A stretch of 64,000 nt of DNA, taken from positions 1 to 64,000 of the IMG/VR virus record IMGVR_UViG_3300014208_000023. One strand, written 5' to 3'. Below, in pieces: positions 38,100 to 64,000 of this stretch (positions within the stretch are counted from its first letter, which is position 1; each line of letters begins with the position of its first letter). Source of the DNA: a virus (lineage: Duplodnaviria > Caudoviricetes). The notes below the pieces were generated by a model. That model was not told where the DNA came from, did not search any database, and saw only the letters and a list, made by a program, of their open reading frames with translations. Position numbers and translations under genes: made by a program.

Positions 38100-38700
38100 A
38101 TAGAATATTCACAGAAGTGTATTAGATTACTCGGAGAGTACGAACCGATAGTTGGAGTCATCGATGGAAGGTTAAAGGCCATCACCAATGTTCCGAGGCA
38201 TCCCTCTAACTGGTTGCTGAACAACCCGCACATAGAACATAATCTAACACACTTCAGTCGGTCCTTGATTATAGGCCTTTGGGGGAGGAGAATCCATAAT
38301 CAAGGACTGACTGAAAAGCGTTAGAGATTAATGATTTTAAACCAGCCCCTAACTTTTGGGCGCCTTCTAACTATGAGAGACTACCTCTACGGTCGAGGGT
38401 GAGATCAAGCACCCAGCGGCAAAGGGATCGTTTTACATCATAGAGTTAGCGGGCTGATTGAAAAGCGTTAGTGATACGGTAGAGCCAGCTACCGAACCTT
38501 TATTCAATTACCATTACTGGATGGTTGCCGCTATTACATTGCGGCTTCGCCTACTGATAACCAGGAATCAATTCTGCGGGGATAAGGAGGTTTTAGTCAG
38601 TTCCCTAACCTTGCGTCGGATTTAACCGCGAGTGTTTATCTTTGAGCTGCATCATGGACTTATGCTCGATTCAAATGCTGTTACGCACACACAAGCTCAT
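38100..38700 (-). ncRNA. candidate large (~600 nt) structured ncRNA
   Basis: 20-bp near-perfect helix, 22-nt direct repeat, pseudoknot potential, no credible ORF. Confidence 0.55.
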
Positions 38701-43479: not shown

Positions 43480-43635
43480 AGTTCTGAGGTTGAGAATCAG
43501 ACAGCAGTATGGATTGACGTGGGATGATATCGAGGAATGTGCGCGTGGTTAATTACTCCAATTGCAATCAGACCTACTATCTCCTCGTCGCCTTATGTAG
43601 CCATGGTCCGCTATCTGATTCTCAATCCCAGAACT
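43480..43635 (-). repeat. long intergenic inverted repeat related to the CCTTCT-stem family
   Basis: AGTTCTG/CAGAACT plus TTGAGAATCAGA/TCTGATTCTCAA; followed by AAGGAG. Confidence 0.65.
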
Positions 43636-47149: not shown

Positions 47150-47169
47150 TCAGAATCCTTTCTTTAATA

Positions 47170-47203
47170 CCGGCCACTAACTTACATATAAACTAGTGGC
47201 CGG
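47170..47203. terminator. 10-bp perfect hairpin after basic peptide gene
   Basis: CCGGCCACTA/TAGTGGCCGG. Confidence 0.5.
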
Positions 47204-47225
47204 GGTTTAAAGAAGTGAGCCTTAC

Positions 47226-47375
47226 TTACTTCTTCGTGGCGGCCTTCTTCGTGGTGGTCTTCTTGGCATTCGCTCGACGAGTCGCCCATGCCTTGTTCGC
47301 AGCGACGGTACCGGGGCTGACCTTCGGCGTGGACTTGCGGGCGGTCTTCTTCGTGGACTTGGTATTGGTAGCCAT
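47226..47375 (-). CDS. 49-aa histone-H1-like basic peptide, absent from track
   Basis: hand translation MATNTKSTKKTARKSTPKVSPGTVAANKAWATRRANAKKTTTKKAATKK. Confidence 0.8.
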   Translation of the reverse strand: MATNTKSTKKTARKSTPKVSPGTVAANKAWATRRANAKKTTTKKAATKK

Positions 47376-50406: not shown

Positions 50407-51216
50407 AGGAATCCTTTATCGGTAGGGAGAAGAGAGTTGCCCTCTAACACGAGAGGCATGATGCTCCATTATCCAGTATCGAGCATTAGCTTGGCGCCTT
50501 TTACGAGCACGCCACTTATCTCTAATAACTAGATGTAGCAGATTGAGCCAAGTACCAGCCAGCATTACTGACCAAACAACATACTCGTTCATCATTTACC
50601 CGTCAGAATGAATGGGCGAGACCACGGGCAGTTTTCGCACGGCCTTTTGTGCGTATGCTTCGGATGCTTACAGGCTTCTTGCCAGCGAGCCCAGGCATCA
50701 GCAGCCTCTTCTTCTTTGGACCTTTTCATTTACGTCTCCGAAGATTTTCCCGTATTACAGATCCGCCATATACAGAATAGAAAGTGTCCAGTCCTTTCGG
50801 GTCAATGGCGTATGGCTGGTAAAGATGACAGATATAACACTGCGCCTTGTATCGTTTGATGTATTGCTTCATACACCCTCCCATAGACACAAGAGCAATC
50901 TTGTAGCTATGGGAAGAGGCCAGGCTTAGGGCCTGGCGTTCCTCGGTAACTATTGGTATTAGCGGTTCAAAGGATTAGTTCACTTCATATCAGTTGTGTT
51001 CTTTACGAAGACAGTCAATCCCAGTGACAGATCCAATGTGTGGCATACTAGCCGTTCGGGACAGGATGCGGACAATATAATCCGCTGGTATCCAGACTAG
51101 TTTAGCCATTACCTTAGCGCAAGGGCAGGTACCCGTTTTCATCTATTGGTTGTTATAATTAGATTCGGCTCAAGTATGGCCGTTACTGACCTAGACCTAT
51201 CGATCTAGGTACGTCT

Positions 51217-52588: not shown

Positions 52589-52792
52589 CTTCCAACCAAG
52601 AGACAGACTGATTAGCGGCCCTTTGTTCGACACGGATAACTAGTAAGGAAATACTAGATTAGCCTTGGCGGCCGAGTATGTATGACGCCCTAAAGCTAGC
52701 CACACATACCCATTGACACCGTGCCTACTTTCTTTGCCTATTCGCGCATAATCAGTCTGACTCTTGGTTAGAAGGCGGAGCCGAAGCTCCGC
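52589..52792 (-). repeat. GC-hairpin + CCTTCT long-stem element
   Basis: GCGGAGC TTCG GCTCCGC then AACCAAGAG/CTCTTGGTT plus CAGACTGATTA/TAATCAGTCTG; ~135-nt loop. Confidence 0.8.
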
Positions 52793-53011
52793 ATCCTAAT
52801 CATCCGATGTAGATGTTTCCCTCTTCGGAGATATCCACGCTGTATCTCCCTTCGTTGTCTTCGGTCTTACGCAGAAGCACAATCAGCGCTTGCTTATCTG
52901 CCTTGACCCAAGTTTTCCCTTCCTTGAAACCATCCTCACTTACCGTGAGAATGACTCCAACATACACATCTGCGCCGACTGATACCGTTGCCAGCGTCTC
53001 TTTGCGAGTCA

Positions 53012-53305
53012 TCAGCATGACATGAGCCTTGCGAGCGGCTTCTTGGTTCCGCTCATCATCAGCCGCTTCTTGTATCCACAACCGATGTTGATACAATTGA
53101 AGTAGAAGACGGCCTTTGCGAGATCGGCCTTGATTGTGTATCGGGACTTGTAGGCACCCTTCACATGCCTACCGACTTCTACGGTAAAGACCGTCTCCGA
53201 CGAGAATGCGATCGGCTTACCGTTGAAGTTGGCGGTAATGATTCTCACCTGCTTATCGTCTTCCGGCATCTTTTTCACTCCTGTATATCCAGCAATGACT
53301 ACCAT
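53012..53305 (-). CDS. hypothetical phage protein
   Basis: ORF in run. Confidence 0.65.
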   Translation of the reverse strand: MVVIAGYTGVKKMPEDDKQVRIITANFNGKPIAFSSETVFTVEVGRHVKGAYKSRYTIKADLAKAVFYFNCINIGCGYKKRLMMSGTKKPLARLMSC

Positions 53306-53718
53306 CAGAAAGGCTTTCCGGGCTCACCCTTCCAGGTGTAGGTGGACTTGATATCCTTGACGGGATTGGCTTCCGAGATTGCCGAATAGATGCTAGTCCA
53401 TCCGTTCTGGCTGAGAAGCTGAACCTCATCACGATTGAGAAGAGAGGCATTCTTCAGAAAGGCCGGATGGGCAGGAACCCAATGGCGCCATTCGAGGTTG
53501 TGCAAGTAAAGAGACTCCATCTTGGCATCCCAATACCCACGCAGATACTCCTTAGCATGCACCGGAAGGTCTGTCCAGCGTGGATCGCTGAAAAGATCCT
53601 TCTCTCTCTGCTGTAGAAGAACTTCGTGTTTCGGCCGAGAGTAGATTGCCAGCAGGAAGATGTTGCAAACTCTCTCCGCAAAAATCTTCTTGCGCTCGAT
53701 AACCTGATTGGTTCTCAT
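53305..53718 (-). CDS. hypothetical protein
   Basis: ORF in run. Confidence 0.65.
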   Translation of the reverse strand: MRTNQVIERKKIFAERVCNIFLLAIYSRPKHEVLLQQREKDLFSDPRWTDLPVHAKEYLRGYWDAKMESLYLHNLEWRHWVPAHPAFLKNASLLNRDEVQLLSQNGWTSIYSAISEANPVKDIKSTYTWKGEPGKPF

Positions 53719-54005
53719 TAGAGCTTCACTCCTAGATACGGATGAACATGACCGGCCGGGAAGTGGCCTACGTCATTGACCGCACCACAATAAGGGCACG
53801 GTGACATTGAAAGGTAAGGCGGCTCGGTCCTCAAGTCAACCACCCCACCGCGAGGAAGTTTCCATGCAACATCGATACCGTTCGGGTCGGTAAAGACCGT
53901 GATGCCGTCTTCTTCCGTACGGCAAGTTACCCGTACGAATGTTTCCGGCTTCGCCTTAGCCTTTCGTTTCTCACTCATCGGAGCTTGAAAACATAGTCGT
54001 CCCAT
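53718..54005 (-). CDS. hypothetical protein
   Basis: CPYCG..H; start probably MSEKRK. Confidence 0.55.
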   Translation of the reverse strand: MGRLCFQAPMSEKRKAKAKPETFVRVTCRTEEDGITVFTDPNGIDVAWKLPRGGVVDLRTEPPYLSMSPCPYCGAVNDVGHFPAGHVHPYLGVKL

Positions 54006-54301
54006 GCCTCTTCTAGATCGTTCCAGGTTTCTGAGCCGAGATAGAAAGACCCGTCCGTTGCGTCGATACTTCTACGGCAGAAAGCAGCGAAGTAATCTTT
54101 GTGACTAGACGAGTGAATGGTTGCGGCGGCTTCTTTGATCAGCTTATCGTAAACACGCTCGCTGATTCCATGACCGATCACCTCGGGGCTTAGACCATCT
54201 TCGATGATCTCCTCTGACTGGACTGCACCAGGATAGAGACCCCACGACTTGAAGAATGCACGAACGCTAGTGAACGGGGCCAGCATGTTCTTACTTGCCA
54301 T
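53975..54301 (-). CDS. hypothetical protein
   Basis: ORF in run. Confidence 0.65.
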   Translation of the reverse strand: MASKNMLAPFTSVRAFFKSWGLYPGAVQSEEIIEDGLSPEVIGHGISERVYDKLIKEAAATIHSSSHKDYFAAFCRRSIDATDGSFYLGSETWNDLEEAWDDYVFKLR

Positions 54302-54772
54302 TCATGCTCCGTGGTAGGTGACGAGGATCCATTCGACAAGATCCATGTTGAACTGAGCGATCCAGATAGGATGATTCAGATGCATCCACTCGGCCGTCTC
54401 TTGCCTGTAAGAATCGTTCAGACGAATCCCAGGCCTATCATCGGCAGCAGCGGCGGCCAAAGAGTAATACTTGCTTACGGCCGCCTTGAGAATTTCCGAG
54501 TTGAAGGCAGGCGCGAGATAGTTACCGCGAGCATACTCCGTCAGCGCGAAAGTATGGCCGGGAATGTTCTCCTTCGCCCACTCGTAAGCCTTAGCCTTAC
54601 TAGCGAAGCATCCTCGGGTAATGATGGAGAACGGGCCGGACTTCTCCGTAGGATGCCACTTCGTTGCTCCAACATGAACATAGGAGAGTAGAATGCTCCA
54701 ATACGTTCGCGGGTCTTCGACGTTGCAGTTACAGACCAGCTCCGTTTGATTGCAGTGAATGCAGAGACTCAT
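54302..54772 (-). CDS. hypothetical protein
   Basis: ORF with GAGGA RBS. Confidence 0.65.
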   Translation of the reverse strand: MSLCIHCNQTELVCNCNVEDPRTYWSILLSYVHVGATKWHPTEKSGPFSIITRGCFASKAKAYEWAKENIPGHTFALTEYARGNYLAPAFNSEILKAAVSKYYSLAAAAADDRPGIRLNDSYRQETAEWMHLNHPIWIAQFNMDLVEWILVTYHGA

Positions 54773-54919
54773 TCCTCATCCTTAGTCCTCTCCGATAGAA
54801 GAGGTGGTAGTGAGACATTCTTCGGAAGCTACGCACCGGACTGTAGTAACAATCCCGGCAAAGCCTGTAGTCGGAAAGAGGGTGTAGGTCTTCTCCTTTA
54901 CACCCGAGAGTGCTGCACT

Positions 54920-55138
54920 TCAATTCTCGCCTGAGTAAGAGTGACGCTTGCACTCCTTAGCTTGAGCGACGGCCGCCACTTGCGAGTCATGCGAGAAGTA
55001 GTATTGCCCAACCGAAGGACAGGTGCAAGGCCGAGATAGCACAATTCTTTTGCAGTCTTCGTGAGTGCAATCGATCATGCCGCATCGGGCAGAAGCCTTG
55101 GAGCAATTACGCATCATCAATACTCCTTTGCGTACCAT
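54920..55138 (-). CDS. small Cys-rich protein
   Basis: ORF in run. Confidence 0.45.
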   Translation of the reverse strand: MVRKGVLMMRNCSKASARCGMIDCTHEDCKRIVLSRPCTCPSVGQYYFSHDSQVAAVAQAKECKRHSYSGEN

Positions 55139-55443
55139 TCGATACAGGTGATACCAGGCTTCACTTCTCCGTCAGAAGTGAGAATCTTGACTACATCGGC
55201 TCGCAGATAGTAGCAAACCAATTGAGTCAACCTCGTGCGCCAATCGTACCCTTCGCGAGTTTCCATGTCAGCAGGGTACTGCGTAATGAAACTAGGACAC
55301 GTGATGTTGGAGACGATGATGTTTCCTTCCACGCTCTTATGGACAGTCCAATCATCCGTATGTGGCTCCCCACCGATACCTTTCGGGTTATGGACCGTCC
55401 ACGTTTCCAGCAGAGAAAGCTTCGCGGTAGGGGTCAGTTTCAT
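55117..55443 (-). CDS. hypothetical protein
   Basis: ORF with GAGGA RBS. Confidence 0.65.
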   Translation of the reverse strand: MKLTPTAKLSLLETWTVHNPKGIGGEPHTDDWTVHKSVEGNIIVSNITCPSFITQYPADMETREGYDWRTRLTQLVCYYLRADVVKILTSDGEVKPGITCIEWYAKEY

Positions 55444-55549
55444 TCGTCCTCGTCCTTATCCGCGTTATGAACCACGAATCCGCCCCTCTCACATAGGGGA
55501 ATGATTTCTGACTCAGGAGGGGATTCCAACTCTCCCTTGTTCGGATCCA

Positions 55550-55882
55550 TCAGTTACTCTCTTGCAGCTTGTGGGCCGCTTCGAGCTTGGCGAACCCTTC
55601 TGCGTGAGAATTGAATACCTTACAGGCATCCGATCCTTCTTCGCCACGATAGGACCTTTCGCTCTCGTGGCTATTGGGTTTGCTCACGTCTACCTCATAG
55701 ACCACGACATCATCGCCCTGCTTGAGCAATGAGATCACGCGGCCACATGCGGTGTTGGATTCGATCAACACCGCACCATCAGGAAGGTCTGCGCGACTCT
55801 GGCTGATAATGGAATAGATCGCCTTGATCTCTCCACCAACCGCGACACCGGCATGATCCCGCTCGACCTTGACTTCACTCAT
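55550..55882 (-). CDS. hypothetical protein
   Basis: ORF in run. Confidence 0.65.
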   Translation of the reverse strand: MSEVKVERDHAGVAVGGEIKAIYSIISQSRADLPDGAVLIESNTACGRVISLLKQGDDVVVYEVDVSKPNSHESERSYRGEEGSDACKVFNSHAEGFAKLEAAHKLQESN

Positions 55883-56093
55883 TGGGAGTTTCCTTTTGCT
55901 TGGGCGGATACAGAAGCCAGGACGAAGTTACCGGTCCAGGCTCTCTACGAATTAGTCCTGCCCGAAGACAGCGACTAACAACATCATAACCAGCCGATTG
56001 TCCAGCGCCAGCCTCTTTTGCAGCTTCGCGAATAATCTTGCCGGGATTCTCAGTAACAAACTGAATGACCTTTTTCATCTTAGGTCCGATCAT
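55875..56093 (-). CDS. putative winged-helix protein
   Basis: NPGKIIREAAKEAG..GYDVVSRCLRAGLI. Confidence 0.6.
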   Translation of the reverse strand: MIGPKMKKVIQFVTENPGKIIREAAKEAGAGQSAGYDVVSRCLRAGLIRREPGPVTSSWLLYPPKQKETPNE

Positions 56094-56094
56094 A

Positions 56095-56728
56095 TTCCCT
56101 CGTGAGCTAACTCTTTATCCCCGGCTAGACTATCAATCTAGCCGGGGATGGTCCGCTCCGTAACAGGCAACCGAATTGGCAGCCTAAAGAGAATGGTTAC
56201 TGACATAGACAGGCTTCTATGGCTGGAGTCCAAAATAGCCTCCGCCTATTCCATATCTGCTAACAAGGATACTACCCGGCCCATATGCTACGGATGAGTC
56301 CGTTAGCGTTACCCGTGGTTCGCGTTACCTGTTAGCATTGTAACCACACTCTTTAGAATGTCAATAGACTATCCCTCCCGATTATCCCATAATCCGTTGC
56401 AACGGCTTGGGGTCGGGAGGGGATCTCCACTACACAATTACTAACTTAGGAATGAGAGTAGCTACTTCTCATAACCATTACAACGAACGGCCCTCATCAG
56501 TAACCGCTTCACGGTTATACGTATTCACCATAGCGCCTGGCCTTTGATACTTGATCAGTTCCTAGTTAGGAAGCCAGTCTGTTGGAATGCCACCTACGTT
56601 CAGTCGTAGGCGTGAATACGTTACGGCCTCTCACGTGTCTTTGAAGCTTCCCCCATACCCAGACGTTCCGGGGGAAGCATTAGCACCCATAGGGAAGCTT
56701 ACGCTTCCGGTAGTCTAGGGCTGTTCTC
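56095..56728. other. 630-bp gene-free hairpin-dense region
   Basis: at least 10 inverted repeats; contains TTGACA-16-TACAAT on minus strand. Confidence 0.6.
56337..56364 (-). promoter_or_regulatory. sigma70-type promoter
   Basis: TTGACA-16 nt-TACAAT. Confidence 0.65.
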
Positions 56729-57025
56729 CTAGGCTTTCCAGCGACTCTCTTTCAGAGGAGAGCCATTGAAGGATCGCCACTCACGAAAGTATCGTCCCTT
56801 GGAATCCCTTTCGTTGTAGTTCGGGCGGACGATTACCGCCTTTCCCTTTGCACGCAGACTCTCTCCGAGAGAGATTGCGTGTTCCAGGTTGGTGAATGTC
56901 GCATCCACGAAACGATCCCCGTATGTGGTAAGATCGCCAACGCACTTACAGGTGATTACAGAGATAGTAGCCTTAGCCATTGAGCCTTGGTCTCCTGGTA
57001 GCTTCTTTTTTTGAACCATCCCCAT
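56729..57025 (-). CDS. hypothetical protein
   Basis: ORF; start probably MAKATIS. Confidence 0.55.
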   Translation of the reverse strand: MGMVQKKKLPGDQGSMAKATISVITCKCVGDLTTYGDRFVDATFTNLEHAISLGESLRAKGKAVIVRPNYNERDSKGRYFREWRSFNGSPLKESRWKA

Positions 57026-57168
57026 AGAGACAGGGGCCTAAGCTCCTGTTTACGTCGCTTGGTTGCCTTGATCCGATTGTGATAGATCGCCATAGCCGTG
57101 TGACCACTAAAGAGCCACTTGATCGGAGAGATCATTCCTTGCGTTTGATACCTACCGTACTGCTTCAT
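56956..57168 (-). CDS. hypothetical protein
   Basis: ORF in run. Confidence 0.5.
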   Translation of the reverse strand: MKQYGRYQTQGMISPIKWLFSGHTAMAIYHNRIKATKRRKQELRPLSLWGWFKKRSYQETKAQWLRLLSL

Positions 57169-57368
57169 TCCTTGCCCGCATTGGCAATGATGTTATGGCA
57201 GATTGCTCGGTAGTGCGCAACCACTTTCGGATCGTTCGTGACCTTTCCGGTGCCGGGAATGAACTTCCACTGGATGAACTTCCATGCCAGCTTGTACCTA
57301 CGATCCTGTTCCGGTGTGAGAAACGAGAATAGCTTTCTCGCTTCAACTTCTCTGTCAGAGAGACTCAT
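57165..57368 (-). CDS. hypothetical protein
   Basis: ORF in run. Confidence 0.6.
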   Translation of the reverse strand: MSLSDREVEARKLFSFLTPEQDRRYKLAWKFIQWKFIPGTGKVTNDPKVVAHYRAICHNIIANAGKE

Positions 57369-57811
57369 GTTACGAGAGCTTTCTTGGTGATAGAGTCGGC
57401 CACTTTCTTGAGAGCGAGCACTTCGGCTTCCGCCTTCTCAGCTCTAGCCGTGAGCCTACGAGTAGCAGAATCCGATCCATCGATGAATGCTTCGTTGATC
57501 ACGCGGAACGTTTCGTTGATCTCGTCCTGATCGCGAAGACTCAGATAGTCCTCGATGGTCATGCACTCGTTGACGCAAGCCACATGGTTGAGCTTGTTCA
57601 GGAAGTACCAGGATGCGTAGGAAGTCGTGTTCTGGCAAACCCAGGAACCGGCACCCTCATTCCACGATCCATCCTCTTCTTCGTAACAACCCTCTCCGAT
57701 GTAGCCGAGCGGAAGCGTGAACTTCCGCATGTAGTAACCATCGAAGTTGGCCTTATTACAGATAGCGACGTAGGTGCGAGAAGGTGAAGAGACGATCTTC
57801 TTTTCAGACAT
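57365..57811 (-). CDS. hypothetical protein
   Basis: ORF with GGAGG RBS. Confidence 0.7.
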   Translation of the reverse strand: MSEKKIVSSPSRTYVAICNKANFDGYYMRKFTLPLGYIGEGCYEEEDGSWNEGAGSWVCQNTTSYASWYFLNKLNHVACVNECMTIEDYLSLRDQDEINETFRVINEAFIDGSDSATRRLTARAEKAEAEVLALKKVADSITKKALVT

Positions 57812-57816
57812 TACTG

Positions 57817-57966
57817 CCTCCTAATTCGGGCCTGTAACAACTTCTGTGTAGCACATGGGTTTAGATTTTACGAGCTATCAGAGGAGACTCGAACCCCTCC
57901 AGCCATGGACTTCACATTATATGCTACAAACCCGAATTAGAAGGGGGAAGGTAGTTAGTCTTCCCC
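57817..57966 (-). repeat. GC-hairpin + CCTTCT long-stem element
   Basis: GGGGAAG..CTTCCCC then CCTTCTAATTCGGG/CCCGAATTAGGAGG; loop holds TATAAT and a T-arm. Confidence 0.8.
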
Positions 57967-58232
57967 GATCCTTTCTTACTGATAGAGCCAGGCATTGACT
58001 GCCCGGCGAACCTCCGTGCATGCAGCCCGAACATCGAAGGCATTGATCGTGTGCTCCATCACAAGAGGAGGAGGAATCTTGCCCTCCTTCTTGAGAGACA
58101 CCACAACCTCACCCACATACGGATTCTTCGGAATCATTCGACTCTCCTACTTGAACCAGCGTCTAGCTCTTGCTCGGAATGCACGAATCGCTCGTTTCAG
58201 GCAAAGAGAACAATGCCTGGCGTCTCCTTCCT

Positions 58233-58487
58233 TCATGCCTTGAACTTCTCCATGAGAGCCTTGGCATCCGGGTAGCCGAAAGGTTTCAGAGCCTCCTCGG
58301 CTTGTTCCAGAGCTTTCGGATCGTTCTCGCGTAGAAACGCATTGATCTTCGGGTCGAGAACCATCATCAGTAGCGTTCGAGCCGCTGACTTGCCCTTGCA
58401 CTCTTTCGGGGGAATAAGCTTCTCAATAGCAGCTTGCCTTTCGGGACCGGGAGGAGGCAACATGATGCCATGTCCAGTGCCAGCCAT
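58233..58487 (-). CDS. hypothetical protein
   Basis: ORF; TGATG coupling. Confidence 0.7.
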   Translation of the reverse strand: MAGTGHGIMLPPPGPERQAAIEKLIPPKECKGKSAARTLLMMVLDPKINAFLRENDPKALEQAEEALKPFGYPDAKALMEKFKA

Positions 58488-58678
58488 CAGTGTTGCCCCA
58501 ACGTCTTACGTAATCCTCGATTACCAGACCCAGCGTAGCCTAGGCTGCGGTAGAAACCTCTTACGTAGGCTTCCCAATGTGAGAAGGTAGGAAACTCCTG
58601 CTTGAACCTCATACAATCTTTGGAGGATTGTTTCTGACGTTGGCCATCACTGCGACCCAATTCGCTCGACTGACGCAT
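58487..58678 (-). CDS. hypothetical protein (start MRQSSE)
   Basis: TAATG coupling; ends KTLGQH. Confidence 0.45.
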   Translation of the reverse strand: MRQSSELGRSDGQRQKQSSKDCMRFKQEFPTFSHWEAYVRGFYRSLGYAGSGNRGLRKTLGQH

Positions 58679-59010
58679 TAGTGCTGCCCCCACGTCTTTC
58701 CGCCATCGTGAGAATGAACACCAGCAGCGATTGCCTTGGGATTGACCTTTCGTCCGCTCATTCCCTCGGCCTTGAGTATCGCCTGACGGAGAACCCACGA
58801 GTTAGTGGCCCGAAGAGAATTGAAGGCACACACGTCAGAGATACCGTCCCGATCCTTCCATCCTTGGAAGACGATCGCGCCGTTCGTTCCGATTCCGATT
58901 CTCACGGTACCGGTCTGAATGTACTGTTCCAGACGCTTGAGAGCTTGTTCCACTTGAGACATTCTCTGAGTGAGAGTCTGACCCTGAGATAGCGCTGTCA
59001 TGCACGCCAT
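58678..59010 (-). CDS. hypothetical protein in AAA-ATPase module
   Basis: GAGG RBS; ends GVHSHDGGKTWGQH. Confidence 0.75.
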   Translation of the reverse strand: MACMTALSQGQTLTQRMSQVEQALKRLEQYIQTGTVRIGIGTNGAIVFQGWKDRDGISDVCAFNSLRATNSWVLRQAILKAEGMSGRKVNPKAIAAGVHSHDGGKTWGQH

Positions 59011-59033
59011 TGTGATTACCTCGTTTGAGTTAT

Positions 59034-59139
59034 CCTTCTAACTCTATTCAATAGACATGCGCCAGATAAGCTCCGGCCTAGTTCCTATCTGAATCTATTG
59101 AATAGAGCTAGAAGGGGGAGACTTGGTTAGAGTCTCCCC
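59034..59139 (-). repeat. GC-hairpin + CCTTCT long-stem element
   Basis: GGGGAGACT/AGTCTCCCC then 22-bp CCTTCTAGCTCTATTCAATAGA/TCTATTGAATAGAGTTAGAAGG (one G-U). Confidence 0.85.
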
Positions 59140-59146
59140 TCATCTA

Positions 59147-59977
59147 TCAGTTAGAAAGATCTAGAGAGTCGTCCGCGGCCATGGGATTCAGGGCCATCGT
59201 TCCGGCGACGGTTCCGACTTCTTCGGAGAAGTCGAGATCCTGCGCCGCCACTTGCGGAGCCTCCTCTTCTTTCGTGAGCGTAGGCGGTTCCTCATAGTCG
59301 AGGAACACTTTCTGAGCCTTCTCCAGTGCGAGAAGACTGACGCGGTAGTCCTGAACCACGTCGATAGCGACCGATCCCTTCTTCTTGATCGTCTTCGCCA
59401 TCTCACGTGCGGCGGTTCGTGCAAGCTCGATTGCAGTCCTCGCCTCGCCCTGTTCCTTCTCTTGCATCATCTCGGCCAGTTGATTGGCCTTAGCGATTGC
59501 TTCCCGAATGGCCTCGGGATCCATCTTGTTGATCGCCCCGCTCATCTCAGCGAGAAGACTGCGCATCTCTCCGGCGATTGCCATTGCAGTCTGCTCGTCG
59601 TTGGCGAGAAGCTTTGCCTTGAGGATGTAGAAGCGCACCTTCGTGTAGACAGACTTCGCATTGAAGTCGTCCATGAGTTGCCGGGCGATCTTGATTCCCT
59701 GGTCCAGCTCCGCCTCCTTATCTTCCGGGCAGAGAAGACAGAACGGAGTTTTGACGCAGAGACGACGGATCTGGTACAGGACATTGCCCCGCACCTTGAC
59801 CGCTTCCTCGTGCTCCTCCACGTCGAAGATTGTCTTCTTCGTGGTCTTCTCTTCGGTGAGCACGCCTTCGGTGCTCTGATCGCTCTCCTCGTGGAGAGTC
59901 TCGTATTCGATACCTCCCTTCATGCGGGAAGTCAGTGCGATCATGAATCCGGGTCGAAGCAGTTGCATCTTTGCCAT
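59147..59977 (-). CDS. coiled-coil-rich hypothetical protein in AAA-ATPase module
   Basis: start MAKMQLL after GAGGA RBS; acidic tail. Confidence 0.8.
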   Translation of the reverse strand: MAKMQLLRPGFMIALTSRMKGGIEYETLHEESDQSTEGVLTEEKTTKKTIFDVEEHEEAVKVRGNVLYQIRRLCVKTPFCLLCPEDKEAELDQGIKIARQLMDDFNAKSVYTKVRFYILKAKLLANDEQTAMAIAGEMRSLLAEMSGAINKMDPEAIREAIAKANQLAEMMQEKEQGEARTAIELARTAAREMAKTIKKKGSVAIDVVQDYRVSLLALEKAQKVFLDYEEPPTLTKEEEAPQVAAQDLDFSEEVGTVAGTMALNPMAADDSLDLSN

Positions 59978-59997
59978 TGTGTCCTCGTTTGGAGTTA

Positions 59998-60117
59998 TCC
60001 CTCTAACTCGGTTCAATTAGACTCGGGCGCTCAACCAAGGGACAACGCCCGGTATATTGCTAAGCCACCACCTAATTGAACCGAGTTAGAAGGGGGAGTC
60101 TGTGTTAGAAACTCCCC
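59998..60117 (-). repeat. GC-hairpin + CCTTCT long-stem element
   Basis: GGGGAG..CTCCCC then perfect 19-bp TCTAACTCGGTTCAATTAG/CTAATTGAACCGAGTTAGA. Confidence 0.85.
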
Positions 60118-60129
60118 TCCTAATTGCCG

Positions 60130-61749
60130 TCAGTCCAGATCCAGCAGATCGTTGGAGCCAGACTTAGCGGCCACCTTCTCAGGCTTGCTTGCGCTCAGGG
60201 CCTTGTCTGCCATGAACGTACGAATCTCTCCGAGCTTGACCGCCATCGTCAGAGACAATGGTACCACATTCTCGGCCGCCGTCAAGAGATCCTTTGTCGT
60301 GATCTGACGTTCTCCGTCGTTGAAGGCCGCGAACATGGCTTCCGGGATGATGGAAGCAATCTCCGCGCCGACCCATCCTTCCGTTTTCTTAGTGAGAGCC
60401 GGAACGTCGATCCCTTCTACCCTACCAGACTGCTTGAGGCAGGTAGAGAGAATCTGTTCCCGATCCGTTGCGGTCGGAAGGTCCACCCAAAACACTTGGT
60501 CGAACCTACCTTTACGCATCAGCTCAGGCGGAAGTGCCCGAACGTCGTTTGCCGTAGCAATGACGAACACCGGGGCCTTGCACTCTTGCATCCAGGTAAG
60601 AATCGTTCCAAGCTGATCCTTGGAAACTCCGCCATCCTCACCACCGGCAGCCCCGAGAGACTTGTCGATCTCATCGAGCCAGAGAACGCAAGGGGCAAGG
60701 GCTTCTGCCATTGCGAGAGCCTTACGAATGCTGGCTTCAGAGTCTCCGACATACTTGGACTTGCGTGCTCCAAGGTCGCACTTGAGTAGCGGCATCTGCC
60801 ATGCGGAAGACACGCACTTCGCCGTGAGACTCTTTCCACCACCGGGAACACCGGCAAGTAGAATGCCCTTCGGAGACTTGAGCCCGTAAGCCCTTGCCGC
60901 CGCTGAAAACCCGTTCTTACGGATACTCAGCCAGTCTTTCAGGACTTCCAGACCGCCGACCGCTTCCATGCCGAGCGGATCGGGGTCGATCCATTCCAGC
61001 ACTTTCTCACGTGCAATGACTTGCTTCTTTTCGGAAGAGATCACTGCCGGGTCGATGCGCTTGAGAGTAACGAGACTCCGATTGAAGCAGCTCTGAATCT
61101 CGGCCGCCGACAACCCAAGAGCCGCATCGATTGCAGACTCACGGGTAGTTGCGTTCGGAATCTCCACCTTGGCCGGATCTAGGCGGAGAGAATCGAAGAT
61201 CCTTTCCACGTCAGAACGGTCAGGCATCGGGTAGTCGATCAGATTGGCCTGACCGATGAGATCCTGGGGAATCTCCGAAGACGGCGTGAGAATGACGATC
61301 GCTCTCTGTTCAGCAGAGGGGGACGTTCCCGCTTCCGTCGCCGTGTTCCGAATTGCCCGGAGAGTGATTGGATCCTTGAAGGCATTGATATCCTTCAAGA
61401 CATACAGACACCGATCTGGGACTTCGCGAATTGCCTGTAGGACCACGAGAGGATCCGTACAGGGCTGACCACCGCTAGAAAGCGGCGTGATGCTTGCAGC
61501 CTTCTTCTCTCCGTAAGAAGACTGCGCCTGAGTGAATCCGAGAGTGACGAGCTTTGTTTCGCCCTTCTCGGTTCCGTATTCCGTCAGACCACTCACGCAA
61601 TCCCAGAAGCGGATTCGCATGTTGGCCGGAAGGGCATTGATAAGCGCCCCTTCCACACGCTTCTCCTCACGAGAGGAGATCCAGAGAAGAGAGACTCTGG
61701 CACGAAGAAGTGCCGTAATCTCCGCATTGACCTTTGCAGATCGAGACAT
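60130..61749 (-). CDS. AAA+ ATPase, Ycf46-like
   Basis: Walker A GVPGGGKS, Walker B LWLDEIDK, ATAN..LPPELMRKGRFD; degenerate N-terminal AAA-like domain. Confidence 0.92.
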   Translation of the reverse strand: MSRSAKVNAEITALLRARVSLLWISSREEKRVEGALINALPANMRIRFWDCVSGLTEYGTEKGETKLVTLGFTQAQSSYGEKKAASITPLSSGGQPCTDPLVVLQAIREVPDRCLYVLKDINAFKDPITLRAIRNTATEAGTSPSAEQRAIVILTPSSEIPQDLIGQANLIDYPMPDRSDVERIFDSLRLDPAKVEIPNATTRESAIDAALGLSAAEIQSCFNRSLVTLKRIDPAVISSEKKQVIAREKVLEWIDPDPLGMEAVGGLEVLKDWLSIRKNGFSAAARAYGLKSPKGILLAGVPGGGKSLTAKCVSSAWQMPLLKCDLGARKSKYVGDSEASIRKALAMAEALAPCVLWLDEIDKSLGAAGGEDGGVSKDQLGTILTWMQECKAPVFVIATANDVRALPPELMRKGRFDQVFWVDLPTATDREQILSTCLKQSGRVEGIDVPALTKKTEGWVGAEIASIIPEAMFAAFNDGERQITTKDLLTAAENVVPLSLTMAVKLGEIRTFMADKALSASKPEKVAAKSGSNDLLDLD

Positions 61750-61797
61750 TCGTTTTCTCCCTAAAAAGAGATTATCTACGATAGAGTCTGTAACGTT

Positions 61798-61867
61798 CCT
61801 CCTACCTTGAGACTGTAACTCATACGAGCTAGAGTGTCAAGGTAGAAGGGGAGGATTGCGCCTCCCC
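61798..61867 (-). repeat. GC-hairpin + CCTTCT long-stem element containing a sigma70 promoter
   Basis: GGGGAGG/CCTCCCC then CTTCTACCTTGA/TCAAGGTAGGAG; TTGACA-17-TACAGT inside. Confidence 0.8.
61812..61840 (-). promoter_or_regulatory. sigma70-type promoter of AAA ATPase
   Basis: TTGACA-17 nt-TACAGT. Confidence 0.75.
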
Positions 61868-61880
61868 AACTACCGATCGG

Positions 61881-62063
61881 CTACTTCGTGTAGACGTTGA
61901 TCCCGATCTTCATGCCCATGTCGGAAACGTCCGGGGGCGAAACCGGGCCTTCCGTGGTAGCGACGATGGTGGTCTTCCCGCTGGCAGAAGGACCGAACTT
62001 TTTGGTCAGGTCGATCTTGATCACGAGGATATCACCCTCGCGGCTCATCTGAATGTTTTTCAT
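61881..62063 (-). CDS. conserved small beta-rich protein (MKNIQMSREG..GPSASGKT)
   Basis: GGGAG RBS; widespread IDLTKxFGPSxSGKT family pattern. Confidence 0.75.
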   Translation of the reverse strand: MKNIQMSREGDILVIKIDLTKKFGPSASGKTTIVATTEGPVSPPDVSDMGMKIGINVYTK

Positions 62064-62091
62064 TGACTTGGACTCCCGATTGTGAGTGAGA

Positions 62092-62349
62092 CTACGAAGA
62101 GAGATCCTGGAAAGGAATCTCCTTCTCCACACGCCTACGGTTCTCCCTGATCTGCCGTTGTAGATCCTTGATTGCGTTGTCTGCCGTGTTACCTGCGCCG
62201 GTAAAACCGATGCAAGCCTTGACCGCTTGCCAGAGAGGTTTCTTACCTCCTCTGACTTTCTGGCAAGTCACATGCCAGTAAAAGGGAACCGGCTTCACTT
62301 GGGATGGCTCGTGATGGTGAATGCCGCACTCCACGCCTTGATCCCCCAC
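62092..62349 (-). CDS. hypothetical protein
   Basis: ORF in run. Confidence 0.55.
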   Translation of the reverse strand: MGDQGVECGIHHHEPSQVKPVPFYWHVTCQKVRGGKKPLWQAVKACIGFTGAGNTADNAIKDLQRQIRENRRRVEKEIPFQDLSS

Positions 62350-62398
62350 CTACCACCATAAAGGTGGTTCATGCGGAATTGCGTGGAAGCGGCAACGA

Positions 62399-63037
62399 TC
62401 ATGCCTTCGATGATTGCTTCCATCTGATATCCACAATACACATTGCGGATCCTTTCTTGCGCTTGGCGTTGCTTTCGAGACCTTGAGACACGTAGGGACG
62501 AACAGAAACGATCTTGGCTCCTACGTCAGAACAGGACTGACGCAGATAGTCAATCCGACCATCCAGATCGGAGAAGCCATCATCCCGGCCGTTCCTAAAG
62601 GTAACAAGAGTCTTACCTTTGTACTTGGCTTCGGTCAAGGCCTGTAGGACCGGAAGTGCAATGTGGGTCGCTTCTACGACATTGCAAGCCAGATCGATAT
62701 CGACGGCCCCGAGATTCTTAGCCCCACGACGAATGAGGTAAGGGCGAATCATGTCCTGAATGGGCCGGTGAATAGGAGGAAGTATGTGTAGGCGCGACTT
62801 CAACTTGCGGAAGTCTGGAATCACATACTCGGTTGCCTTGATCACTCCAATGTCGGTATCGACCACTTGGATCGCACCCTTCCACCGAAGGACATTCAGC
62901 ACCCCCAAGAGACCGTGACTGATTGTTAGAATCTCCTTGGTAGGAAGAATCTTATACAACCACTCACACCTCTCATTGTCTTTGGCGTAGGAGATCGGAG
63001 TGTGCTGCATTGAGCACACATTGTTCCGCTTTCCCAC
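62399..63037 (-). CDS. putative methyltransferase-like protein, paralog of 47387..48070
   Basis: VVDTD, VDIDLAC, VTFRNGRDD, YVSQ..GSAMCIVDIR. Confidence 0.45.
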   Translation of the reverse strand: MGKRNNVCSMQHTPISYAKDNERCEWLYKILPTKEILTISHGLLGVLNVLRWKGAIQVVDTDIGVIKATEYVIPDFRKLKSRLHILPPIHRPIQDMIRPYLIRRGAKNLGAVDIDLACNVVEATHIALPVLQALTEAKYKGKTLVTFRNGRDDGFSDLDGRIDYLRQSCSDVGAKIVSVRPYVSQGLESNAKRKKGSAMCIVDIRWKQSSKA

Positions 63038-63223
63038 TTAGACCTGAGCCGAAGCCCAGACCACGAAGCATGCCAGACCGACGAAGATCAGATTGGCCCC
63101 GGTGATTGCGTAACCACCGACAACCATGGCGACGTGATGGATGCTCGGGAACCAAGTCCCGAGAAGACCGAGAAGCAAGATGCTTCCCAGAGTGAGGAGA
63201 ACGAAGACGATTGCGTTTGCCAT
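63038..63223 (-). CDS. two-TM membrane protein
   Basis: hydrophobic; GAGGGA RBS. Confidence 0.7.
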   Translation of the reverse strand: MANAIVFVLLTLGSILLLGLLGTWFPSIHHVAMVVGGYAITGANLIFVGLACFVVWASAQV

Positions 63224-63230
63224 TGTCCCT

Positions 63231-63431
63231 CTACTTGTGAGAGCCGGAATCGTATCCGGGCGTAGGTGACTCAGCCCAACGGAGAATCCTTTGATCTTCC
63301 GCCTGCTTACGCTCCTCCTCCCTCTGAATCCCGGTTTGCACGCCTTCGACCGTATGAACGACCTTGACGAAGCCTACCACGAACACGAGAGTGACGCCAA
63401 GAACAATCAGACAGAGAATGAGCTTGAGCAT
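63231..63431 (-). CDS. single-TM membrane protein
   Basis: N-terminal TM; GGGAG RBS. Confidence 0.7.
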   Translation of the reverse strand: MLKLILCLIVLGVTLVFVVGFVKVVHTVEGVQTGIQREEERKQAEDQRILRWAESPTPGYDSGSHK

Positions 63432-63606
63432 TGATTCTCCCTTAGAAACAACTAGAGGCAGTCTAACGCGCTACACATTCCTAGACGTTCGGCCTTCAGT
63501 GACCCTTACTAGATCCAGCCGAGGCTAGATGCTTCAGGAGTATGCACGCCCTAGTTATCCGGTAGTGTTTTTCTCACATACGTTTTCATGTATGTGGCGC
63601 ATTAGA

Positions 63607-63730
63607 ATCCCTCTAATCAAGTCCCAAGAACACTTGCCATTGTGATCCTGCTGCTAGTTAGACTAGAGGAGGTTTCCAGACGAGCGGCATGGAACTTGAT
63701 TAGAGGGATGAGAGGGATCGGCCCCTCATC
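63607..63730 (-). repeat. GC-hairpin + long-stem element
   Basis: GATGAGGGG..CCCTCTCATC overlapping perfect 16-bp ATCCCTCTAATCAAGT/ACTTGATTAGAGGGAT. Confidence 0.75.
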
Positions 63731-64000
63731 CGTCTATGTCAGAAGTACGGCTTAGGCTTCTTACCTTTGCCGAGGTTGATGTTCTGGATGAGAAGCTCCT
63801 TAGCCGCCTCATCCAACTGAGAGGTGTCGAGAGGAAACTCCCCCTTGTACGGGGGAGAATGCTCCTCGGTCTCGTGCTCCTCATCGGGATCGAACCTACG
63901 CGACTTGCCCACTTCTACTTCGCCTTTCTACGTAAGAGTACGAACGTTCCCAGGAGTAGCAGACCAACACATCCAAACGGTTGCGGCGGCTTGCTTGACC

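What the first reader, a model, noticed from the sequence alone, without database searches (positions are those of the whole stretch)
52589..63730. Repeated gene-punctuating element: GC hairpin + CCTTCT long stem + variable cargo loop
Seen: six clear copies in the early region (52589, 57817, 59034, 59998, 61798, 63607), three more at 26.6-27.2 kb and a related stem at 43480. Minus-strand grammar: stop codon, short GC hairpin, (C)C(T/C)TCT, 12-22 bp stem, loop of 4-135 nt, closing AG(A/G)(A/G)G, then often RBS and next gene. Stem sequences differ between copies but pairing is kept, and mismatches are mostly G-U on the minus strand. Cores often read TCTAAC...GTTAGA. Copies 59034 and 59998 share a downstream GAGTTAGA(A/G)GGATAACTC that can form an alternative hairpin next to the RBS. 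Hypotheses: (a) RNase III-type processing/stabilising sites as in T7 and SPO1 early RNA, here also releasing cargo RNAs; (b) attC-like single-strand recombination sites (integron cores are RYYYAAC/GTTRRRY) making the early region a shufflable cassette array; (c) binding sites for a phage protein. I recognise no named family.
Basis: partly seen in the sequence, partly recalled or inferred. Interest (0 to 1): 0.85.

Follow-up and report, generated by a model that had tools for sequence, protein, structure and literature searches.

The report
Repeated RNA separators between early phage genes
A 428-kb groundwater jumbo phage and its relatives place the same two-part RNA fold (a GC hairpin next to a ~22-bp stem that hides a ribosome-binding-like sequence) between many early genes, most likely to cut, stabilise and switch on the separate messages, as T7 does with RNase III sites.

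Summary
At least 11 copies lie in the window and 3 more just past its end. All are on the minus (sense) strand, and all lie in the GC-rich early block or at 26.6-27.1 kb.

Each copy has four parts after the upstream stop codon:
- a purine tract (P1);
- a G-rich/C-rich hairpin (H1);
- a pyrimidine tract C(C)YTCT (Y), directly abutting H1;
- a long stem S2 (median 22 bp, loop 3-203 nt) whose 3' base AGRRG(G) (P2) looks like a Shine-Dalgarno sequence.

P2 is the likely ribosome-binding site of the next gene in about 40% of copies.

Such stems are about 800-fold above the shuffle expectation. Eight or more related phage contigs carry the same architecture. Stems covary at orthologous sites (14 of 28 pairs compensatory). 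Mismatches are G·U on the sense strand (124 against 29 A·C), so the selected structure is the RNA.

Y can also pair with P1, which gives a three-part toggle.

The genome has no tyrosine recombinase. The AAC/GTT core is not conserved, and most gene indels do not end in elements, so the attC idea fails. Only one copy holds a promoter, so these are not PeSLs. The loops are not conserved, so there is no evidence for cargo RNAs.

Best reading: intercistronic processing and translation-control elements, probably cut by host RNase III. Cleavage itself is untested.

The parts
63607..63735 (-). Element copy. H1 is GATGAGGGG..CCCTCTCATC. S2 is 20 bp (63607-63709) with a 63-nt loop. The 3' base TAGAGGGAT lies 4 nt before a 15-codon mini-ORF.
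61798..61873 (-). Element copy upstream of the AAA ATPase gene. H1 is GGGGAGG..CCTCCCC. S2 is 24 bp with a 4-nt loop. It is the only copy in this genome with a sigma-70-like promoter inside the stem.
   Evidence: the ortholog in L008/L016 keeps TTGACA-N17-TATAGT
61812..61840 (-). Promoter-like site TTGACA-17-TACAGT inside S2 of the 61798 copy. A transcript started here would begin at about the P2 tract AGGUAGGAGG.
   Evidence: 10 of 12 matches; the start position is inferred
59999..60124 (-). Element copy after the AAA ATPase stop codon (60130-60132). P1 is AGGAGG (60116-60121). H1 is GGGGAGT..ACTCCCC. Y is CCTTCT (from 60093). S2 is 22 bp with a 51-nt loop. P2 is GTTAGAGGG (59999-60007). The real SD, GAGG, lies 21 nt further on.
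   Evidence: covariation across 6 relatives
59034..59144 (-). Paralog of the 59999 copy, sharing its base and its leader GGATAACTC..AAACGAGG. S2 is 22 bp with a 38-nt loop. It is absent at this site in L006, L009, L010, L012 and L013.
   Evidence: CM E = 7e-20
57817..57971 (-). Element copy. S2 is 23 bp with an 82-nt loop. P2 ATTAGGAGG lies 5 nt before the ATG of the 148-aa gene. In L016 H1+Y is conserved, but the upper stem and the downstream gene are replaced.
52589..52799 (-). Element copy. P1 is TTAGGA. H1 is GCGGAGC-UUCG-GCUCCGC. S2 is 26 bp with a 134-nt structured loop. P2 GGTTGGAAG lies 9 nt before the ATG.
50877..50944 (-). H1 is GCCAGGC..GCCTGGC. S2 is about 18-22 bp with a 4-nt loop (CTCTTCCCATAG../..CTATGGGAGG). 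P2 lies 4 nt before the ATG. Orthologs occur in L006, L009 and L010.
47158..47235 (-). Weak or degenerate copy. S2 is 27 bp with a 4-nt loop and base CTTCTTT/AAAGAAAG, 8 nt before the ATG. The upstream hairpin is weak (-8.2 kcal/mol).
26989..27057 (-). Element copy downstream of a promoter-like site (TTGACG-N17-TACAGT near 27107-27135). H1 is GCGGAA..TTCCGC. S2 is 21 bp with a 4-nt loop.
26650..26745 (-). Element copy. H1 is GCGGAGG..CTTTCGC. S2 is 22 bp with a 27-nt loop. P2 GGTGAGGAG lies 5 nt before the ATG.
43480..43635 (-). 28-bp long-range stem (100-nt loop) without H1 and without the CYTCT/AGRRG base. Not counted as a member.
   Evidence: no CM match

Best explanation
The elements act in the sense-strand RNA as separators between cistrons of polycistronic early transcripts.

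Each unit begins 0-25 nt after a stop codon. Its order is: a purine tract P1, a G/C hairpin H1, a pyrimidine 'anti-SD' tract Y (CCUUCU), and a ~22-bp duplex S2. Y forms the 5' base of S2. The 3' base of S2 is an SD-like purine tract P2 (AGGAGG, AGAGGG or AGAAGG).

Inferred mechanism:
- In the full-length transcript, Y pairs with P2, so the downstream ribosome-binding or SD-like tract is shut inside a two-turn duplex.
- Host RNase III cuts that duplex.
- The upstream mRNA is left ending in H1. H1 then extends by pairing P1 with Y, which protects the 3' end and pulls Y away from P2.
- The downstream mRNA starts with a free P2. P2 serves as the SD, or, where the true SD lies 20-50 nt further on, as a 5'-proximal ribosome-binding stabiliser.

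Shown here: the structure, its conservation and covariation, its RNA-strand asymmetry, its positions, and the competing P1:Y pairing.

Inferred: the cleavage, the enzyme, and the effect on stability and translation.
For: - Excess of stems: 8 of score >=18 in 28 kb against 0.01 in shuffles.
- All copies lie in the gene (minus) orientation and in intergenic gaps.
- The MFE fold of every copy gives H1 abutting S2 with no linker.
- The same architecture occurs in 9 related contigs. A covariance model built from one orthologous site finds about 40 sense-strand copies at E < 1e-3; antisense scores are far lower.
- Covariation at the site after the AAA gene: 97% of cells paired, 14 of 28 pairs with compensatory changes, 0 of 500 shuffles as high.
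- Against the ~90%-identical contig L016, none of the 9 substitutions in 5 clean orthologous stems breaks a pair: 3 are double changes, 5 are WC<->G.U changes, and 1 lies in an existing mismatch.
- G.T 124 against A.C 29, p = 3e-15; outside the base, 68 against 16.
- S2 length has median 22 bp and IQR 20.5-24, with loops of 3-203 nt. S2 scores after G-rich hairpins followed by CYTCT are bimodal: background <=10, elements >=13.
- P1:Y pairing extends H1 by a mean of 4.8 contiguous pairs against 2.1 in controls, p = 3e-14.
- A start codon opening an ORF of >=30 codons lies 0-14 nt after S2 in 29 of 67 composites.
- Promoter-like sites on the sense strand are few (about 5-6 for about 13 elements), which implies polycistronic RNA.
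- The element hairpins are not ordinary terminators. Canonical hairpin-plus-T-tract terminators exist elsewhere in this genome, whereas H1 is followed by CTTCT.
- Established knowledge: RNase III cleaves uninterrupted RNA duplexes (PMC3997798). In B. subtilis it cuts both sides of 10-36-bp duplexes with up to 505 nt between the two cuts (PMC11780869). SD-like sequences near a 5' end stabilise mRNA without translation, as in SP82, ermC and ompA (PMC7509114).
Against: - There is no RNA data: no RNA run holds this phage, so neither transcripts nor cleavage are shown.
- The host is unknown, so the presence of RNase III in it is assumed.
- The phage encodes no RNase III or dsRBD protein, so a host enzyme is required.
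- T7-type sites usually carry an internal loop and are cut once. These stems are near-perfect, so both strands would be cut and a ~10-bp duplex would remain in trans unless P1 displaces it.
- SD masking alone could explain the copies in which P2 is the real SD.
Confidence: 0.5

Rival explanations
1. A purely translational gate with no cleavage. Y (anti-SD) masks P2 (SD), and P1 acts as an anti-anti-SD. The three-way toggle sets or couples the translation rate of the downstream gene to events at the upstream stop codon, because a terminating ribosome covers P1.
For: Y is complementary both to P2 and to P1. P2 is the likely SD in about 43% of copies. The stop codon lies 0-25 nt before P1/H1.
Against: In more than half of the copies P2 lies 20-50 nt or more upstream of the start, and a separate SD follows it (59999, 59034, 61798). 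Masking an SD does not need 20-26 bp, yet the length is narrowly kept. Duplexes this long would be RNase III substrates in any host that has the enzyme (PMC3997798, PMC11780869).
Confidence: 0.2
2. DNA-level mobile regulatory cassettes like the PeSLs of T4-type phages. On this view the conserved hairpin and base serve mainly as recombination sites that shuffle early genes.
For: - The region is highly mosaic among relatives.
- The 59034 copy is a paralog of the 59999 copy, including its leader, and is missing in five relatives.
- In L016 the homology break for a gene replacement falls at 57933, the Y/S2 boundary.
- H1 has the polyG/polyC form, like the PeSL stem-loop (PMC2839356).
Against: - Only 1 of about 13 copies has a sigma-70 promoter, which is a defining part of a PeSL.
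- Only 1-2 of 7 indel or replacement events against L016 touch an element. The 212-aa gene (62426-63038) is missing in three relatives with no element at either end.
- The shared sequence between copies is only about 10-20 nt.
- G.U asymmetry and compensatory changes show selection on the RNA fold, not on DNA identity.
Confidence: 0.08
3. Binding sites for a phage or host RNA-binding protein, for example a processive antiterminator, a translational repressor, or a nuclease other than RNase III, which recognises H1 plus the conserved CYUCU/AGRRG base.
For: The junction sequence (CUCCCC-CUUCUAA) is conserved while the rest of S2 is free to vary. A CUAAC motif recurs in some H1 loops (9 of 45).
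Against: The conserved base is fully explained by SD/anti-SD complementarity. The loop motif is not general. No candidate RNA-binding protein was identified: Pfam finds only an AAA ATPase among 10 neighbouring proteins.
Confidence: 0.1
4. attC-like single-strand recombination sites that make the early region an integron-style cassette array.
For: A few copies read YTCTAAC...GTTAGAR, which resembles the RYYYAAC/GTTRRRY cores. The elements follow stop codons and vary in length.
Against: - The complete genome has no tyrosine recombinase.
- AAC/GTT is present in only 2-3 of about 13 copies.
- The stems are continuous, without the unpaired spacer and extrahelical bases of attC.
- The wobble asymmetry points to the mRNA-sense strand.
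- Gene indels mostly do not end in elements.
Confidence: 0.02

Closest known systems
RNase III processing sites of the phage T7 early region (R0.3-R1.3)
   Same: Repeated stem structures lie between cistrons of an early polycistronic transcript made by host RNA polymerase. About two helical turns of dsRNA are present. Processing leaves a 3' hairpin that stabilises the upstream message and can free the downstream ribosome-binding site (own knowledge of the T7 literature).
   Different: T7 sites are single hairpins with an internal loop and are usually cut on one strand. Here a separate GC hairpin abuts a near-perfect 18-28-bp stem with a loop of 3-203 nt. The base of the stem is an anti-SD/SD pair, and a third tract (P1) competes for the anti-SD. 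There is no sequence similarity and no Rfam match. Cleavage is untested.
Bs-RNase III sites and the polypurine 5' stabiliser of Bacillus phage SP82/SPO1 early RNA
   Same: Early intercistronic processing is followed by an SD-like polypurine tract near the new 5' end, which stabilises the downstream RNA through ribosome binding (Hue et al. 1995, as cited in PMC7509114). This matches the copies in which P2 is not the real SD.
   Different: The host and enzyme are unknown here, the architecture is different, and no experimental mapping exists.
PeSLs (promoter-early stem-loops) of T4-type phages (PMC2839356, PMC4122927)
   Same: Small repeated intergenic modules in a hyperplastic early region, carrying a polyG/polyC stem-loop and placed just upstream of small ORFan genes. 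Copies are gained and lost between relatives.
   Different: A PeSL is defined by a strong sigma-70 promoter plus a terminator stem-loop. Only one copy here has a promoter, and there is no ~22-bp second stem in PeSLs. Here selection is on RNA pairing, and most indels avoid the elements.
Integron attC sites
   Same: Imperfect palindromes of variable length placed after gene ends. Some copies contain YCTAAC/GTTAGR.
   Different: No integrase is present, the AAC/GTT triplet is not conserved, there are no extrahelical bases, and there is no cassette behaviour.
Plastid intercistronic expression element (IEE; PMC2230500)
   Same: A short intercistronic RNA element that turns polycistronic transcripts into stable, translatable monocistronic mRNAs.
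   Different: The IEE works through a protein-protected footprint, not a long duplex, and it is unrelated in sequence and lineage. This is an analogy only.

Membership tests
T7-type RNase III processing signal | Lies between cistrons of a polycistronic early transcript, in the sense orientation | tested here: met
   All copies are intergenic and on the minus strand. There are 5-6 promoter-like sites for about 13 elements. Transcription itself is not observed.
T7-type RNase III processing signal | dsRNA of about two helical turns (about 20 bp or more) | tested here: met
   S2 has median 22 bp and IQR 20.5-24, and it covaries.
T7-type RNase III processing signal | Cleaved by RNase III in vivo or in vitro | not testable with these tools
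   No RNA runs hold the phage and the host is unknown.
T7-type RNase III processing signal | Internal loop that directs single-strand cleavage | tested here: not met
   Stems have 0-2 mismatches and no conserved internal loop.
PeSL (T4-type phages) | Strong sigma-70-like early promoter within the motif | tested here: not met
   Only the 61798 copy has one, TTGACA-17-TACAGT.
PeSL (T4-type phages) | PolyG/polyC stem-loop next to ORFans in a hyperplastic region | tested here: met
   H1 is GGGGAG..CTCCCC and gene content is mosaic.
PeSL (T4-type phages) | Indel and replacement breakpoints fall in the motifs | tested here: inconclusive
   1-2 of 7 events against L016 touch an element. The clean 614-bp gene indel does not.
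Integron attC | Integron-type tyrosine recombinase present | tested here: not met
   PF00589 has no match in the complete genome, while the controls ring in 14 of 14.
Integron attC | Conserved RYYYAAC/GTTRRRY cores | tested here: not met
   AAC/GTT is present in 2-3 of about 13 copies. The conserved part is CYTCT/AGRRG.
Integron attC | Unpaired central spacer and extrahelical bases in the folded strand | tested here: not met
   The stems are continuous.
Intrinsic (rho-independent) terminator | GC hairpin followed by a U-tract | tested here: not met
   H1 is followed by CTTCTA (3-4 T in 8). Canonical T-tract terminators occur elsewhere in the same genome.
Any Rfam family | Match to a curated covariance model | tested here: not met
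   Only tRNAs and a tmRNA match at gathering score. Nothing in the elements matches at E <= 1.

The most novel reading that the evidence does not exclude
The elements are a previously undescribed, self-contained RNA 'cistron separator' with three interacting tracts: P1, the anti-SD tract Y, and the SD-like tract P2. Cleavage of a two-turn duplex triggers a strand swap from Y:P2 to P1:Y. In one step this caps the upstream mRNA with a longer 3' hairpin and releases the downstream ribosome-binding tract. The unit also spreads by duplication within the hyperplastic early region of a clade of ~430-kb groundwater phages.
Probability: 0.35. Interest if true: 0.7.

Novelty: new variant of a known kind. 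Interest (0 to 1): 0.6.

Why it matters
This is a well-supported new structured-RNA family: it covaries, it is strand-specific, and it has at least 13 copies per genome and about 40 or more across relatives. It is absent from Rfam.

It suggests how a huge phage with hundreds of small early genes organises the expression of long host-made transcripts using host enzymes alone. If the mechanism holds, the unit would be a compact natural insulator that joins a 3' stabiliser, a processing site and a controlled ribosome-binding site, which would be useful for operon design.

The element also gives a handle for annotating early regions and gene starts in uncultured jumbo phages. The duplication and loss of copies links RNA regulatory modules to gene shuffling in hyperplastic regions.

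Tried and rejected
- A megablast of 5 kb against GenBank phages gave no match.
- IMG/VR relatives of the AAA ATPase at 41-47% identity carry no elements, so they were useless for covariation.
- A pattern scan of IMG/VR (CCCCTTCTAA..TTAGARGG) gave 33 loci. The model matched only L043, which holds a different palindromic repeat. The family appears confined to this clade.
- The genome-contig scan gave only a 31%-identical bacterial homolog and no host clue.
- No RNA runs were found.
- The whole record behind L006 is not held.
- P0018's contig had no DNA available.
- Hue et al. 1995 (PMC177050) is not held.
- A general promoter in the loops was rejected.
- Ordinary terminators were rejected.
- An alternative genetic code as the reason for the short ORFs was rejected: the standard code gives full coverage in the body of the genome.
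- A CUAAC motif in the H1 loops as a general feature was rejected (9 of 45).
- Cargo RNAs were rejected for lack of conservation and of Rfam matches.

Full report
**Context**

The window is the first 64 kb of a complete 428,320-bp virus record with terminal repeats. The genome averages 39.7% GC, but 40-68 kb reaches 48-53%. That block consists of small minus-strand genes read in the standard code. Of ten neighbouring proteins, only a 539-aa AAA+ ATPase (60130-61749, minus strand) has a Pfam match. The DNA comes from groundwater metagenomes, with partial relatives in wastewater, sludge, soil and sediment.

**Observation**

I scanned the whole genome for inverted repeats without using any motif.
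- Strong long-range stems cluster at 23.8-66 kb.
- In 40-68 kb there are 8 stems of score >=18. That compares with 0.01 in 100 dinucleotide shuffles and 0.14 per 28 kb elsewhere in the genome.
- Requiring a stable hairpin immediately 5' of the stem leaves 12 hits. All are on the minus strand between 26.9 and 65.9 kb, apart from coding tandem repeats at 202 kb.

Further copies lie at 50877-50944 and, beyond the window, at 64465, 65000 and 65828. Near 26.6-27.1 kb there are two full copies and one lone hairpin. The 43480 stem lacks the hairpin and the base motif.

**Anatomy (minus strand)**

The unit starts 0-25 nt after a stop codon. Its parts, in order:
- a purine tract P1 (AGGAGG, AGGTG or TTAGGA);
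- a hairpin H1 with a G-rich 5' arm and a C-rich 3' arm (GGGGAG..CTCCCC);
- a pyrimidine tract Y, C(C)YTCT, with no linker after H1;
- the stem S2, of which Y is the first part;
- a closing purine tract P2, AG(A/G)(A/G)G(G).

MFE folds of all twelve copies folded give H1 abutting S2.

I then searched for a GC hairpin abutting a long stem, with no motif required. This gave 67 composites in this genome and nine related contigs. S2 has median 22 bp (IQR 20.5-24, range 13-28) and loops of 3-203 nt. After G-rich hairpins followed by CYTCT, the best S2 score is bimodal: background <=10, elements >=13. The long stem is therefore an obligatory part of the unit, not an occasional one.

P2 is Shine-Dalgarno-like. 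A start codon opening an ORF of >=30 codons follows within 0-14 nt in 29 of 67 composites. Examples are ATTAGGAGGcagtaATG at 57817 and GCGAGGAGGTAacatcATG at 65000. In other copies (59999, 59034, 61798) the start lies 21-50 nt further on and has its own GAGG or GGAG.

Folded alone, H1 extends by pairing P1 with Y. The extension averages 4.8 contiguous pairs against 2.1 for control upstream 9-mers (p = 3e-14), and it is >=5 pairs in 58% of copies against 6% of controls. Y therefore has two mutually exclusive partners, P1 and P2.

**Not ordinary terminators or promoters**

The same genome has canonical hairpin-plus-T-tract terminators, for example at 208418, 342620, 272755 and 251261. H1 is instead followed by CTTCTA, and the terminator scan does not pick up H1 on the sense strand of the window.

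Only the 61798 copy holds a sigma-70-like promoter, TTGACA-17-TACAGT. It is conserved as TATAGT in L008 and L016. Sense-strand promoter-like sites in 46-69 kb number about 5-6 for about 13 elements, which implies long polycistronic transcripts.

**Relatives and covariation**

The AAA ATPase has homologs at 65-92% identity on contigs from NCBI, JGI, ENA and Logan, including a second ~431-kb genome. I fetched nine such contigs. All carry the same architecture at many intergenic sites. More distant IMG/VR relatives (41-47% identity) carry none.

At the orthologous site after the AAA gene:
- The stem sequences differ but still pair. RNAalifold predicts H1 (8 pairs) abutting S2 (20 pairs), and 14 of the 28 pairs show compensatory changes.
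- On that structure 97% of cells pair, and all five measures exceed 500 of 500 shuffles. Sliding the 3' partner by one column drops pairing to 56-59%.

Against L016 (about 88-93% nucleotide identity), five clean orthologous stems carry nine substitutions, and none breaks a pair. Three are double WC-to-WC changes, five are WC<->G.U changes, and one lies in a pre-existing mismatch.

Under scoring that treats G.T and A.C alike, G.T outnumbers A.C 124 to 29 (p = 3e-15). Outside the basal 7 bp the count is 68 to 16. The selected structure is therefore in the sense-strand RNA, not in duplex DNA or the bottom strand.

A covariance model built from six orthologs of one site finds the 59034, 57817 and 65828 copies in the whole genome and nothing outside the early block. 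Across all contigs it finds about 40 sense-strand copies at E < 1e-3. Antisense matches are far weaker and mostly cover S2 without H1.

There is no Rfam match. A pattern scan of IMG/VR found no further members.

**Cassette test**

Gene content around the conserved AAA gene and its two downstream neighbours is highly mosaic. Aligning L016 with this genome gives seven indel or replacement events.
- Only one clearly ends in an element. Homology stops at 57933, the Y/S2 boundary, where the 148-aa gene is replaced by an 88-aa gene. The basal 12 bp on both sides are kept, with one compensatory change.
- The 212-aa gene at 62426-63038 is precisely absent in three relatives, with no element at either end.
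- A 58-codon gene is inserted in L016 upstream of an H1 without bringing an element of its own.

Elements themselves turn over. The 59034 copy is a paralog of 59999, shares its leader, and is absent at that site in five relatives. The element after the AAA gene is absent in L011 and L014.

The genome has no tyrosine recombinase. The attC reading is therefore rejected. The PeSL reading (PMC2839356, PMC4122927) fails on its defining promoter, although duplication of the unit as a regulatory cassette is real.

**Loops**

At one orthologous site the loop ranges from 8 to 82 nt without conservation. Loops mostly extend the helix imperfectly. I found no evidence for cargo RNAs.

**Mechanism**

The following points were shown here:
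- a conserved, covarying, sense-strand RNA fold between early cistrons;
- an SD-like tract shut into a two-turn duplex by an anti-SD tract;
- a competing upstream partner for that anti-SD tract;
- no phage RNase III or dsRBD protein.

From established knowledge, RNase III cleaves uninterrupted duplexes (PMC3997798). In B. subtilis it cuts both sides of 10-36-bp duplexes whose cut sites can be up to 505 nt apart (PMC11780869). SD-like tracts near a 5' end stabilise mRNA (PMC7509114).

The inference is that host RNase III cuts S2. H1 then extends with P1:Y to cap the upstream mRNA and strip Y from P2. The downstream mRNA begins with a free P2, which serves as its SD or as a 5' stabiliser. The promoter inside the 61798 copy would start RNA at about the same P2 tract, which fits this picture.

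A cleavage-free translational toggle is the main rival. It does not explain the constant ~22-bp length, nor the copies in which P2 is not the real SD.

**Verdict**

This is a real, clade-specific, previously uncatalogued RNA element family. Functionally it is closest to the T7 and SP82 early processing sites, but with a distinct three-tract architecture. The mechanism remains inferred.

The same elements were also noted by first readers of overlapping windows of this genome (e1-5374048, e1-5374038). I reached the SD/anti-SD reading before seeing those notes.

Noticed in passing
window 23012-23399 (-): A full-length tmRNA match (Rfam RF00023, 80.7 bits) inside the phage genome. ARAGORN did not report it.
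   Followed up: no
window 40000-64000 and on to about 68 kb: The early block has 48-53% GC against about 37% for most of the 428-kb genome. The change is abrupt near 68-72 kb.
   Followed up: partly
window 57860-57990 (-): The loop of the 57817 element holds a canonical-looking tRNA T-arm (AGGGG-TTCGAGT-CTCCT) followed by CTGATAG. The complement, CTATCAG, ends the upstream gene. This may be a tRNA remnant; ARAGORN and Rfam find nothing.
   Followed up: partly
window 62426-63038 (-): The 212-aa ORF is precisely absent in three related metagenomic contigs (joints 62423/62425 to 63038/63039). It is a clean single-gene indel with no flanking element.
   Followed up: yes
window 56175-56365 (-): The best sigma-70-like promoter of the region (TTGACA-16-TACAAT, 56337-56364) lies in the 5' arm of a 26-bp long-range stem with a 139-nt loop. 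The stem is conserved in L016 (10471-10645). RNA started at this promoter would lack the 5' arm, so the stem is unexplained.
   Followed up: no
window 38243-38325 (-): A 32-bp stem with a TCTAAC/GTTAGA base but no CC/GG and no H1, inside a ~600-nt non-coding stretch. It gives a weak model match (E about 0.03-0.05).
   Followed up: no
L010 8194-8291; L012 8361-8417; L013 8491-8565 and 8988-9063: A variant class in relatives. It has the same H1 plus long stem, but the base reads (C)GGTCTA...TAGAC(TG) instead of CCTTCT...AGGAGG, so the stem does not hide an SD-like tract.
   Followed up: no
window 63549-63596 (-): A 15-codon mini-ORF (ATG..TAA) starts 4 nt after the 63607 element. About 175 nt of apparently non-coding RNA follow before the next gene.
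   Followed up: no
window 59981-60010 and 59012-59045 (-): Downstream of the two paralogous copies, GAGTTA..TAACTC can form a 6-bp hairpin that would display P2 (GAGGGA or GAAGGA) in its loop once S2 is opened.
   Followed up: partly
L043 1-330: An unrelated IMG/VR contig carries tandem palindromes CCCCTTCTAATTT..AAATTAGAAGGGG interleaved with GTACTACAAT..ATTGTAGTAC. This is a different repeat that shares the CCCTTCTAA word.
   Followed up: no
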